Assembly (NCBI RefSeq): GCF_003334385.1
Contig: NZ_QOWN01000005.1
From: Escherichia coli
GTDB taxonomy: Bacteria > Pseudomonadota > Gammaproteobacteria > Enterobacterales > Enterobacteriaceae
Length of the DNA: 64,000 nt
Direction: 5' to 3' (one strand)
Positions 41,601 to 44,600 of the stretch are shown one piece after another (within the stretch, counting starts at the first letter, position 1; every line of letters begins with the position of its first letter). A program made the position numbers.

Positions 41601-44600
41601 TTTAGCGGCGAGAAACGCCAGTTGTTGATGGGTACGCCAGCCCGCGCTGTACGCAGTGTTAGTGACGACGAGTTACACTGGAAACGGTTGAATACCAAAG
41701 AGTATCAGGATCTTGTCGGGCGCTATCATGCATCGTTACATGAAACGCAGCCGTTGAGGCAAATGGAGGAAAATCGCCCCCGTTTGCAGGGGACAACGGA
41801 TGTGACGCCTAAACGGTGATCTTGCCGGATGCGGCGTAAACGCCTTATCCAACTCTGCTGGAGAGCAACCGTAGGCCGGATAAGATGCGCCAGCATCGCA
41901 TCCGGCGATAGCTGTCGGATGCGGCATAAACGCCTTATCCAACCCGGCTGGAGAGCAACCGTAAGCCGGATAAGATGCGCCAGCATCGCATCCGGCGACC
42001 AGGTCGCACGGTATCATCGAAATGACATTAACGACGCATACTCTTTGACAACATCATCTGCCACTTCTGCTCGCGGTTAAGTTCCGTGAGCGGAACGGCA
42101 GGAATACTCGGTGTCTTTCTTACGCCGACTAATTTTTCCCGACTGTTATTGCGCAGGCGCGCGTAAATTTGTTCATCGATATCGACCACTTTAACCAGTC
42201 GCTGACACTGGCATCCCCGCCCTTCCAGCTTATTAGGGATCATCTTAACTTCGCAGCTTATTTCTGTGACTTCCGACAGAATATAAGTCAGGGTATTAAC
42301 CGCCTTGCTGTGTTCAATATCGAAATGAATAGAGATCTCTCTTGCTATCACCCACCGATTTTCAGCCATCATCCATTCGGCGATTAACAAGTAGAGTGGT
42401 TTTTCAACATATCCTTCACACATACGAACTCCAGTTTCACAAATTAAAAGTCTGGCTATGACTCGTTTTGAAGCAATTAAACAAGGCCATATTAAAATTG
42501 TGGATATATCGATAGTATGCAACTTCACCGTCGATAAGTGTGAGCTAAATCCTGCTTATGTCATCAAAAATATCGATTCCCCAAAAGATTTACTTAATGG
42601 GCAAAAAAAAACGGTCCTCATCAGAGAACCGTATTAGTTATTCGATCAAATTAGCGGATGAAAAATATCTGCCATGACACGCTATTATTTGATCTGTGCG
42701 TGCATTTCCTGCACCGAAATTACTTTTTCAGTCGCATCGGCATTCAGCGCCATCGCGGTGGCAAAGCCGCCGTTCAGGGTGGTGTCGTAATGCACTTTAT
42801 ATTGCAGCGCACTGCGACGAATCACGCGGGAGTCTTCAATCGCACGACGGCCTGAGGTGGTGTTGATGATGTAGGTATATTCGCCATTCTTGATACGGTC
42901 CTGAATGTGCGGACGGCCTTCATGCACCTTGTTTACCAGACGCGGGTTGATACCTGCTTCGCCCAGCACAATCGCCGTGCCGTGGGTCGCATCCAGCTCG
43001 AAGCCCTGTTTCAGCAGTTTTGCCGCCAGGTCCACCACGCGTTCTTTATCGCCTTCGCGCACGGAAAGCAGCGCACGACCGTGTTTCTTCATGGTGGAGT
43101 TGCTGCCCAGCTGCGCTTTGGCAAACGCTTCAGCGAAGGTGCGGCCCACGCCCATGACTTCCCCGGTAGAGCGCATTTCTGGCCCTAACAGCGGGTCAAC
43201 GCCCGGGAATTTATTGAACGGCAGCACCACTTCTTTCACCGAGTAGTACGGCGGGATAACTTCTTTGGTTACGCCCTGCTCAGCCAGCGATTTGCCAGCC
43301 ATCACGCGCGCCGCCACTTTTGCCAGCGGTACGCCGGTGGCTTTGGAGACGAACGGAACGGTACGCGCCGCACGCGGGTTAACTTCAATCAGGTAGACTT
43401 CGTTGTTTTTCACCGCAAACTGCACGTTCATCAGGCCGCGCACCTGCAATTCGAAGGCCAGTTTCTGCACCTGCTGGCGCATCACATCCTGAATTTCCTG
43501 ACTTAAAGTGTAGGCTGGCAGCGAACATGCGGAGTCACCGGAGTGCACGCCCGCCTGCTCAATATGCTCCATGATGCCGCCAATCAGCACCATTTCGCCG
43601 TCGCAGATGGCGTCCACATCCACTTCTACCGCGTCATCGAGGAAGTGGTCCAGCAACACTGGCGCATCGTTAGACACGCTGACCGCCGTCTGGAAGTAGC
43701 GACGCAGGTCTGCTTCGTCATAGACGATTTCCATCGCCCGACCGCCGAGAACGTAAGACGGACGTACCACCAGCGGGTAGCCAATCTCTTTCGCCTTCTC
43801 TACCGCCATTTCGATAGCGGTAACGGTGGCGTTCGCCGGTTGCTTCAGTTTCAGGCGGTCAACCGCGTGCTGGAAGCGTTCACGGTCTTCCGCACGGTCG
43901 ATAGCATCCGGGCTGGTGCCGATAACCGGTACGCCAGCGGCTTCCAGTGCACGCGCCAGTTTCAGCGGGGTCTGACCGCCGTACTGAACGATAACGCCTT
44001 TCGGCTTCTCAATACGCACGATTTCCAGCACATCTTCCAGGGTTACCGGCTCGAAGTAGAGGCGGTCGGAAGTGTCGTAGTCGGTGGAGACGGTTTCCGG
44101 GTTACAGTTAACCATAATGGTTTCGTAACCGTCTTCGCGCAGCGCCAGCGAGGCGTGTACACAGCAGTAGTCGAATTCGATACCCTGACCGATACGGTTC
44201 GGGCCGCCGCCGAGAACCATGATTTTTTCACGGTCGGTAGACGGATTCGCTTCGCACTCTTCTTCATAAGTGGAGTACATGTAAGCGGTGTCGGTGGCGA
44301 ACTCTGCCGCACAGGTATCCACGCGCTTATAAACCGGGTGCAGGTCATACTGGTCGCGCAGCTTGCGGATTTCCGCTTCGCGCACGCCCGCCAGTTTTGC
44401 CAGACGCGCATCGGCAAAGCCTTTGCGTTTCAGCTGGCGCAGGAATTCAGCGTTCAGGCCAGTGATGCCCACTTCCGCTACTTTCTCTTCCAGACGCACC
44501 AGTTCTTCAATCTGTACCAGGAACCAGCGGTCAATATTGGTCAGGTTGAAGACGCCGTCCACAGACAGGCCCGCACGGAACGCATCGGCGATGTACCAGA

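What the first reader, a model, noticed from the sequence alone, without database searches (positions are those of the whole stretch)
41821..42000. Tandem duplication of a ~90-bp REP-containing unit between caiE and caiF
Two near-identical units (41823-41908 and 41913-41998) differing by a few substitutions fill the convergent caiE/caiF spacer (208 bp). From my remembered K-12 coordinates the spacer there would be only about 85 bp, which would make this a second copy-number difference at a BIME locus; that number is from memory and unverified.
Basis: partly seen in the sequence, partly recalled or inferred. Interest (0 to 1): 0.3.

Follow-up and report, generated by a model that had tools for sequence, protein, structure and literature searches.

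The report
Two-copy REP (BIME-2) array, caiE–caiF
The spacer between the carnitine genes caiE and caiF holds two tandem copies of an ordinary E. coli repetitive palindrome unit (a BIME-2 element), a common, already-understood kind of strain-to-strain length polymorphism found in about one in seven sequenced E. coli.

Summary
Window 41823-41908 and 41913-41998 are two direct 86-nt copies (period 90, 5 substitutions) that fill the 208-bp convergent caiE/caiF spacer. Each unit is a y-type REP, a 17-nt S linker and a z2-type REP, head to head. Two such units joined by a 7-nt linker make a textbook BIME-2 array.

It is not strain-specific. The inter-unit junction occurs in 766 of 5,426 complete E. 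coli genomes (14%), including ATCC 8739 and a B-strain derivative. One genome has three units, 35% carry the K-12-type 85-bp form, and about 51% carry single-unit forms. Some of those single-unit forms hold IS1397 remnants inside the z2 REP.

All five non-coli Escherichia lineages sampled have one unit or a y-deleted remnant, so the two-unit array looks derived within E. coli. Its linker (GCGATAGCTGTCGG) equals the caiE end plus stop codon of E. whittamii, which suggests a duplication at a GCGA microhomology. Later changes fit in-register unequal recombination or slippage.

BIME-2 copy-number variation between strains is documented in the literature. Verdict: ordinary, already known, low interest.

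The parts
41229..41819 (+). caiE coding sequence (3' end borders the array; stop codon TGA at 41817-41819)
   Evidence: ORF; RefSeq annotation of near-identical genomes gives a 591-nt caiE ending here.
41824..41853 (-). Unit 1, y-type REP (GCCGGATGCGGCGTAAACGCCTTATCCAAC). The foot is degenerate and the CTAC/GTAG tetranucleotide is missing. The GC/TT stem mismatch is present.
   Evidence: Sequence. Hairpin -12.9 kcal/mol as plus-strand RNA and -16.3 as minus-strand RNA. The equivalent REP of unit 2 aligns to the first (y) hairpin of Rfam naRNA4. It has more than 3 mismatches to the 34-nt canonical y consensus, so it was not returned.
41854..41870 (.). Unit 1, S linker (17 nt, TCTGCTGGAGAGCAACC) between the two REP heads
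   Evidence: Sequence. Compare the 16-nt linker of the canonical y-S-z2 BIME at 50928-51013.
41871..41906 (+). Unit 1, z2-type REP with intact GTAG (GTAGGCCGGATAAGATGCGCCAGCATCGCATCCGGC)
   Evidence: 0 mismatches to the z2 pattern, which also finds 7 other z2 REPs in the window and 0 in shuffles. Hairpin -22.2 kcal/mol, z -4.9.
41907..41913 (.). Tail-to-tail inter-unit linker GATAGCT. With its neighbours it reads GCGATAGCTGTCGG, identical to the E. whittamii caiE end (CGA TAG) plus the left edge of its y REP.
   Evidence: The 55-nt junction occurs once per genome in 766 genomes and at no other locus.
41914..41943 (-). Unit 2, y-type REP (GTCGGATGCGGCATAAACGCCTTATCCAAC)
   Evidence: Aligns to the y hairpin of Rfam naRNA4 on the minus strand. 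Hairpin -11.4 kcal/mol.
41944..41960 (.). Unit 2, S linker (CCGGCTGGAGAGCAACC)
   Evidence: Sequence.
41961..41996 (+). Unit 2, z2-type REP with GTAG mutated to GTAA
   Evidence: 1 mismatch to the z2 pattern. Hairpin -22.0 kcal/mol, z -5.4.
41874..41944 (-). Tail-to-tail pair of y(unit 2), linker and z2(unit 1) that matches Rfam naRNA4 (RF02564). It exists only because there are two units.
   Evidence: 70.7 bits against a gathering score of 59.5, E 7e-13, full-length match.
41997..42027 (.). Unique right flank between the array and the caiF stop codon
   Evidence: Alignments A1 and A2.
42028..42423 (-). caiF coding sequence (131 aa), convergent with caiE
   Evidence: ORF, RefSeq annotation, Pfam CaiF_GrlA on orthologues.

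Best explanation
The feature is a two-unit BIME-2 array. Each unit is a y REP, a 17-nt S linker and a z2 REP, and a 7-nt linker joins the units. It sits in the shared 3' region of the convergent caiTABCDE operon and caiF. It is one allele of a multi-allelic length polymorphism of the E. coli species.

Origin (inferred):
- The ancestral Escherichia state is one unit (117-118 bp spacer).
- The second unit arose once, by a 90-bp tandem duplication at the 4-nt microhomology GCGA. This GCGA is the last Arg codon of caiE in an allele like that of E. whittamii, and also the tail of the z2 REP. The duplication left a fossil of the caiE stop codon (TAG) in the linker.
- Homologous recombination then shuffled different first units and flanks onto the constant linker plus second unit.

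Later changes (shown by allele structures): copy number goes up (three units in one genome) and down (O157-type and 20AH011-type single units) by in-register unequal recombination or replication slippage. The 34-nt and 17-nt identical runs between the units give enough homology.

Function (inferred from what is established for REP/BIME-2 elsewhere, not tested at this locus): the hairpins form in both convergent transcripts and act as 3'-exonuclease barriers and partial, bidirectional terminators. On DNA, the y REPs are preferred DNA-gyrase sites. A second unit most likely changes these effects only quantitatively.
For: Anatomy:
- Two units, period 90.
- The z2 REPs match the z2 pattern with 0 and 1 mismatches, alongside 7 other z2 copies in the window and none in shuffles.
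- The y and z2 REPs align to the two hairpins of Rfam naRNA4, a model built on the REP325 BIME-2 array, at 70.7 bits.
- Every REP is a stable hairpin, -11 to -22 kcal/mol, z -3.2 to -5.4. The whole spacer folds at z -4.6 on the plus strand and -5.5 on the minus strand.
- No intrinsic-terminator-like site lies in the spacer.

Population:
- Junction in 766/5,426 genomes, one place each.
- Three units in 1 genome.
- K-12-type allele in 1,896/5,426.
- MG1655 spacer 85 bp.

Polarity:
- One unit in E. whittamii and in a second non-coli lineage; y-deleted remnants in E. albertii and Escherichia sp. MOD1-EC7003.
- These loci are 92-95% identical to the window, against 96.6% for a B2 E. coli.

Mechanism:
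- The three-unit allele's middle unit carries the four 5' markers of unit 2 and the 3' marker of unit 1, the exact product of out-of-register exchange.
- The O157-type single unit equals the window's unit 1 plus the window's right flank.
- The 20AH011 single unit keeps the GTAA marker of unit 2.
- In strain 300033 the first unit is identical to the WCHEC005215 single unit while the linker and second unit are the window type.
- The linker is a 14/14 match to the E. whittamii caiE end.

Function by analogy:
- REP325 stabilises upstream mRNA and attenuates read-through. Convergent gene pairs with a REP show higher expression, and about 40% of such REPs lie in bidirectional terminators (bioRxiv 10.64898/2026.03.23.713779).
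- Gyrase cleavage sites are over-represented in BIME-2, mainly in y REPs (PMC6379681).
Against: - No expression, RNA-end or gyrase data exist for this locus or for a two-unit strain, so the functional part is analogy only.
- Both y REPs have degenerate feet and lack CTAC, so they may be weaker hairpins or gyrase sites than canonical y REPs.
- The single-origin claim rests on about ten sampled alleles plus the uniform 55-nt junction (741 of 766 at 99% identity or more), not on a phylogeny.
- The 'fossil stop codon' reading rests on one E. whittamii genome and on 5 informative linker bases. The opposite direction fits equally well through the same microhomology: a two-unit ancestor, with E. whittamii losing unit 1.
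- No whittamii-type caiE end was found as a single-unit allele in 5,426 E. coli genomes. The donor allele is therefore extinct, unsampled or foreign.
Confidence: 0.85

Rival explanations
1. A recent, strain-private tandem duplication (or an assembly artefact) of a single REP unit.
For: The copies are adjacent and 94% identical. The reference strain K-12 lacks the array.
Against: The same junction is in 766 independently assembled complete genomes. Four of the five differences between the units are shared with single-unit alleles of other lineages, and the linker is not derivable from the present flanks. Divergent two-unit haplotypes exist (strains 300033 and CX21).
Confidence: 0.02
2. The extra unit was added by the REP-associated tyrosine transposase (TnpA-REP/RAYT) through the BIME amplification pathway proposed by Ton-Hoang et al., rather than by homology or microhomology.
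For: In vitro, TnpA-REP cleaves and recombines BIMEs, and it was proposed to amplify BIME units (PMC3333891). The repeat is exactly one BIME unit plus linker.
Against: TnpA-REP needs GTAG 5' of a REP and cleaves at C|T dinucleotides. Here only one of the four REPs keeps GTAG (41871). The duplication endpoints fall in a GCGA microhomology, not at a CT. The three-unit and one-unit derivatives are perfect in-register chimeras, as expected from homology-driven exchange.
Confidence: 0.1
3. The array encodes a functional naRNA4-like small RNA on the caiF-sense strand that acts with HU in nucleoid organisation, and only alleles with two or more units can make it.
For: Rfam naRNA4 match of 70.7 bits, above the gathering score, spanning the inter-unit junction. 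naRNA4 was described from REP325 (PMC4550694).
Against: The Rfam model is in effect a y + z2 REP pair, so any BIME-2 junction scores; four more hits lie at 9668-9988. A 2026 preprint reports that REP325/naRNA4 does not measurably compact the nucleoid and acts locally as a terminator and stabiliser. No promoter-like site is in the region. 86% of E. coli genomes lack the pair.
Confidence: 0.05

Closest known systems
BIME-2 arrays of E. coli (for example REP325 between yjdM and yjdN, the source of naRNA4; sucC-sucB; tldD-yhdP)
   Same: Alternating y and z2 REPs. Short S linker between the heads and a short linker between the tails. Tandem repetition of the whole unit. Intergenic position at the 3' ends of transcription units. 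Copy number differs between strains (PMC3333891). Matches the Rfam model built on REP325.
   Different: Only two units, against six in REP325 (PMC4550694 abstract). The y REPs have a degenerate foot and no CTAC. One z2 REP has GTAA instead of GTAG. The linker sequences are specific to this locus.
BIME polymorphism and IS1397 association described by Bachellier et al. 1997 (Genetics 145:551) and Clement et al. 1999 (J Bacteriol 181:6929); titles cited from the reference list of PMC3333891; papers not held
   Same: This one locus shows the classes their titles name: BIME-based length polymorphism of an intergenic region and IS1397 inserted in a palindromic unit. A ~100-nt IS1397 end is in the 205-bp allele and a 7-nt scar in the 119-bp allele.
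   Different: I found no paper that treats the caiE-caiF locus itself. The frequencies and outgroup polarity given here are new descriptive detail only.
REPINs (REP doublets forming hairpins; Bertels and Rainey 2011; cited in PMC3333891 reference list)
   Same: The head-to-head y-S-z2 unit is an inverted REP pair that behaves as the unit of duplication.
   Different: REPINs are described as mobilised doublets dispersed by RAYTs. Here the change is local tandem copy number, with homology-type breakpoints.

Membership tests
BIME-2 | Contains z2-type REPs | tested here: met
   41871-41906 (0 mismatches) and 41961-41996 (1 mismatch) match the z2 pattern together with 7 other z2 REPs in the window; 0 matches in 100 shuffles. 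They also align to the second hairpin of Rfam naRNA4. Caveat: I wrote the pattern partly from this locus.
BIME-2 | Contains y-type REPs | tested here: met
   41914-41943 aligns to the y hairpin of naRNA4 with high posterior probability. Unit 1's y REP shares GCCGGATGCGGCGTAAACGCCTTATCC with the canonical y REPs at 37416 and 50928. Both copies have a degenerate foot (CCAAC instead of CCGGC), so neither falls within 3 mismatches of the 34-nt consensus.
BIME-2 | REP and inverted REP in opposite orientation, separated by a short S linker (not the long L linker of BIME-1) | tested here: met
   17-nt linkers at 41854-41870 and 41944-41960 between the REP heads. The canonical BIME at 50928-51013 has a 16-nt linker.
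BIME-2 | Occurs as tandem copies of the unit joined by a short flanking motif; copy number variable between strains | tested here: met
   Period 90 with a 7-nt tail-to-tail linker. One, two and three units are found in different genomes.
BIME-2 | Binds and is cleaved by DNA gyrase in vivo | not testable with these tools
   Known for other BIME-2 elements (PMC6379681). K-12, the strain used for such maps, lacks the y REP at this locus.
TnpA-REP (RAYT) substrate | GTAG tetranucleotide 5' of the REP foot, plus a two-base stem mismatch (both required for binding and cleavage, PMC3333891) | tested here: inconclusive
   The stem mismatch is present in all four REPs. GTAG is present only in the z2 REP of unit 1 (41871-41874). 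Unit 2 has GTAA, and neither y REP has CTAC on this strand.
Rfam RF02564 naRNA4 | Score at or above the curated gathering threshold | tested here: met
   70.7 bits against 59.5, full-length, minus strand 41874-41944.
Rfam RF02564 naRNA4 | Expressed and processed as a discrete RNA that binds HU | not testable with these tools
   No expression data. The functional claim for the founding member is disputed (bioRxiv 10.64898/2026.03.23.713779).

The most novel reading that the evidence does not exclude
The allelic series at this BIME acts as a natural, non-coding expression dial for the carnitine regulon. The series is the 85-bp long hairpin, one unit, two units, three units and the IS1397-scarred forms. 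It would work by changing termination, read-through and 3'-end stability of the convergent caiF (activator) and caiTABCDE transcripts. The alleles would then be maintained or sorted by selection rather than drift. A lesser variant is that the linker's fossil caiE stop codon records an inter-lineage recombination event that built the array.
Probability: 0.1. Interest if true: 0.35.

Novelty: already known. Interest (0 to 1): 0.1.

Why it matters
It matters little beyond housekeeping.

- **Reference caveat:** it shows that the K-12 reference is not the typical state of this spacer. K-12 carries a y-deleted 85-bp form found in 35% of genomes.
- **Annotation:** REP-derived ORFs and naRNA4 hits here should be treated as generic BIME-2 signals.
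- **Practical use:** the locus is a clean, multi-allelic length marker (83-298 bp) flanked by conserved genes. It could serve for typing, or as a natural test bed for how REP copy number affects convergent transcription.
- **If function were shown:** if the copy number did tune caiF or caiE expression, it would be a concrete example of the 'REPs as tunable dials' idea raised in the 2026 preprint. Nothing here shows that.

Tried and rejected
1. **Counting the O157-type single-unit allele.** The 73-nt query gave unusable identity bands, because short perfect REP matches elsewhere fall in the same band. Only a rough estimate remains: 3 of 39 evenly spaced rows, about 8%.
2. **Wrong coordinates.** The seventh fold used wrong MG1655 coordinates and should be ignored. 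It was redone.
3. **Hairpin close to the stop codon.** I considered that a hairpin within a few nucleotides of the caiE stop codon is present in unit-bearing alleles but lost in K-12. From my own knowledge (Liang, Rudd and Deutscher 2015, Mol Cell; not found in the library), REPs within 15 nt of a stop codon can reduce translation. I rejected this as a difference between alleles, because the K-12 spacer folds into one long hairpin (-40.4 kcal/mol, z -6.2) that also starts right after the stop codon.
4. **Template switching.** I considered that the K-12 allele arose by quasi-palindrome template switching. The two arms are not perfected at the DNA level, so this is not supported.
5. **Truncated outgroup loci.** The genome contigs DNA-pattern scan returned three loci cut just short of the spacer. 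I recovered E. albertii and another lineage by exact-protein lookups with reconstructed CaiF sequences.
6. **Whittamii-type allele in E. coli.** I looked for an E. whittamii-type caiE end as a single-unit allele in E. coli and found none.
7. **Papers not held.** Bachellier 1997 and Clement 1999 are not in the library.
8. **Locus-specific literature.** caiE and caiF appear in the REP preprint's supplements only as rows of differential-expression tables.

Full report
**1. The observation.**

Tandem Repeats Finder reports 41826-41998, period 90, 1.9 copies, 95% matches, no indels, score 318. The repeat finder gives two 86-nt copies at 41823-41908 and 41913-41998, 94% identical. They differ at five positions: 41825 C/T, 41836 G/A, 41854 T/C, 41856 T/G and 41874 G/A. 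The flanking ORFs are caiE (plus strand, stop at 41817-41819) and caiF (minus strand, 42028-42423). RefSeq annotation of near-identical genomes confirms both names. The spacer is 208 bp. The 12 kb around it is essentially identical to many ordinary E. coli isolates.

**2. The comparison with K-12.**

In NC_000913.3 caiF ends at 34695 and caiE begins at 34781, so the spacer is 85 bp.

**3. Anatomy.**

Each unit reads, on the plus strand:
- a y-type REP in inverted orientation (GCCGGATGCGGCGTAAACGCCTTATCCAAC);
- a 17-nt linker;
- a z2-type REP with its GTAG head (GTAGGCCGGATAAGATGCGCCAGCATCGCATCCGGC).

A 7-nt linker (GATAGCT) joins the tail of z2 in unit 1 to the tail of y in unit 2.

The evidence for the REP types is as follows.
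- The z2 REPs match a z2 pattern with 0 and 1 mismatches. The same pattern finds seven other z2 REPs in the window and none in shuffles.
- The y and z2 REPs align to the two hairpins of Rfam naRNA4, a model built on the REP325 BIME-2 array, at 70.7 bits against a gathering score of 59.5.
- A canonical single y-S-z2 BIME at 50928-51013 has a z2 REP only one base different from this one.
- Each REP is predicted to be a stable hairpin on either strand, -11 to -22 kcal/mol. The whole spacer is much more structured than shuffles, z -4.6 and -5.5.

Three deviations from the textbook form stand out. Both y REPs have a degenerate foot and no CTAC. The z2 REP of unit 2 has GTAA instead of GTAG. Neither y REP falls within 3 mismatches of the 34-nt y consensus.

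By the published definition this is a two-unit BIME-2. That definition is z2 + y, an S linker, tandem copies with short flanking motifs, and copy number variable between strains (PMC3333891).

**4. How common it is.**

| Allele | Evidence | Genomes (of 5,426) |
|---|---|---|
| Two or more units | 55-nt query across the inter-unit junction, which single-unit loci cannot seed; one place per genome | 766 (14%) |
| Three units (298-bp spacer) | Stringent search for two junctions one unit apart; strain EH10-18-47 | 1 |
| K-12-type 85-bp spacer | 66-nt allele-specific query | 1,896 (35%) |
| Single-unit forms | Remainder | about 51% |

The two-unit genomes include ATCC 8739, a B-strain derivative (NEBExpress), O121 and ETEC strains.

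The single-unit class has several haplotypes. It includes a 205-bp allele in which the z2 REP holds about 100 nt of one end of IS1397. It also includes a 119-bp allele with a 7-nt IS1397 end scar. IS1397 is the insertion sequence known to insert specifically into the palindromic units of BIMEs (title cited in PMC3333891).

**5. Polarity and origin.**

| Lineage | State of the spacer |
|---|---|
| E. whittamii | One unit, 117 bp |
| Second non-coli lineage (CaiF variant of GTDB genome E69) | One unit, 118 bp, with the same left flank as E. coli B2 strains |
| E. albertii | y REP deleted, 83 bp |
| Escherichia sp. MOD1-EC7003 | y REP deleted |

These loci are 92-95% identical to the window, against 96.6% for a B2 E. 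coli. One unit is therefore the likely ancestral state, and the two-unit array was seen only within E. coli.

The K-12-type allele is a single unit that lost 18 bp (the y loop and 3' arm) and 15 bp (most of the S linker and GTAG). It still folds as one long hairpin.

The two units are not a fresh duplicate, for three reasons.
- Four of the five differences are shared with single-unit alleles of B2 strains and E. whittamii.
- The 4 nt that complete the 90-nt period (TAGC) match neither present flank.
- The junction GCGATAGCTGTCGG is identical, 14 of 14, to the E. whittamii sequence ...AAG CGA TAG CTGTCGG. That sequence is the last Arg codon and stop codon of caiE, followed by the left edge of the y REP.

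Because the z2 tail also ends in GCGA, a 90-bp duplication at this 4-nt microhomology in a whittamii-like allele would give exactly the observed linker. This step is inference. The reverse event, loss of unit 1 in E. whittamii through the same microhomology, fits equally well. No whittamii-type caiE end exists as a single-unit allele in the 5,426 E. coli genomes.

**6. Later dynamics.**

In three divergent two-unit haplotypes (the window type, 300033 and CX21) the linker and second unit stay essentially constant (0-5 differences, the 5 in CX21's z2). The first unit or the right flank follows the single-unit haplotypes of other lineages. The first unit of 300033 is identical to the WCHEC005215 single unit. 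That is what homologous recombination with single-unit donors would produce.

Other alleles fit exchange within the array.
- The middle unit of the three-unit allele carries the four 5' markers of unit 2 and the 3' marker of unit 1. This is the exact product of out-of-register exchange or slippage within a two-unit array.
- The O157-type single unit equals the window's unit 1 plus the window's right flank. The 20AH011 single unit retains the GTAA marker of unit 2. Both look like contraction products.
- The units share identical runs of 34 and 17 nt, enough for such exchange.

I consider the RAYT/TnpA-REP route less likely. Only one of the four REPs keeps the GTAG that the enzyme needs, and the duplication endpoints are not at the C|T dinucleotides it cleaves.

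**7. What it probably does.**

Nothing was measured at this locus, so this part is analogy.
- No intrinsic terminator-like site lies in the spacer. The REP hairpins are therefore the only obvious 3' structures for both convergent transcripts.
- REP325 was recently shown to stabilise the upstream mRNA and attenuate read-through (partly Rho-dependent), and not to compact the nucleoid. About 30% of convergent gene pairs carry a REP and show higher expression, and nearly 40% of such REPs lie within predicted bidirectional terminators (bioRxiv 10.64898/2026.03.23.713779).
- Gyrase cleavage sites are over-represented in BIME-2, mostly in y REPs (PMC6379681).

I therefore take the array to be a bidirectional 3'-end hairpin block and a potential gyrase site. 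The second unit would add dosage rather than a new function.

The naRNA4 hit spans the junction, so it exists only in alleles with two or more units. The model is in effect a y + z2 pair, and four similar hits occur in another BIME array at 9668-9988.

**8. Verdict.**

What it describes is an ordinary and already documented kind of variation, present in hundreds of public genomes. The new details are the allele frequencies, the outgroup polarity, the fossil stop codon in the linker and the IS1397 scars. They are descriptive only. Interest is low.

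Noticed in passing
window 9616-9991: Another BIME array: five z2 REPs alternating with short y-like REPs, period 85. Four naRNA4 hits score just above the gathering threshold (60.2 against 59.5 bits).
   Followed up: partly
L004 (NZ_CM187540.1, 205-bp caiE-caiF spacer) and L015 (NZ_OZ547164.1, 119-bp spacer); reference copy L027 1601-1693: In some E. coli strains the z2 REP of this same BIME carries remnants of the REP-specific insertion sequence IS1397. One allele holds about 100 nt of one IS end, fused to GTAGGCC. The other holds a 7-nt TGAACTG scar from the other end. The 93-nt piece matches IS1397 copies in 1,720 of 5,426 genomes.
   Followed up: partly
window 42108: The window has T where its closest relative and all 24 other fetched Escherichia loci have G. 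This changes CaiF codon CGT (Arg) to AGT (Ser), about residue 106 of 131. It is a private missense variant in the carnitine regulator.
   Followed up: no
L001 (MG1655) 697-781; window equivalent 41820-42027: The K-12-type 85-bp spacer is not simply a decayed repeat. It folds into a single long hairpin (-40.4 kcal/mol, z -6.2) in which the remnant of the y REP 5' arm and the right flank extend the z2 stem.
   Followed up: partly
L020-L022 (E. albertii), L012 (Escherichia sp. MOD1-EC7003), L001 (K-12): The y REP and most of the S linker have been deleted with different breakpoints in K-12-type E. coli, E. albertii and MOD1-EC7003. This suggests recurrent loss of the y half of the unit, while the z2 REP is always kept.
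   Followed up: partly
window 50928-51013 and 37368-37449: Two further single BIMEs with intact GTAG/CTAC heads: y-S-z2 at 50928-51013 and z2-S-y at 37368-37449. The z2 REP at 50978 differs by one base from the caiE-caiF z2 REP.
   Followed up: no
window 41829-42080 (+), 41726-41986 (-), 41736-42017 (-): Mechanical ORFs of 83-93 aa run through the array and contain internally repeated peptides because of the duplicated REPs. They are almost certainly spurious, but gene callers could pick them up.
   Followed up: no
window 62980-63132, 47120-47172, 818-917: Rfam hits above the gathering score elsewhere in the window: sok antitoxin RNA (122 bits), ES003 sRNA (87 bits) and a TPP riboswitch (66 bits).
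   Followed up: no
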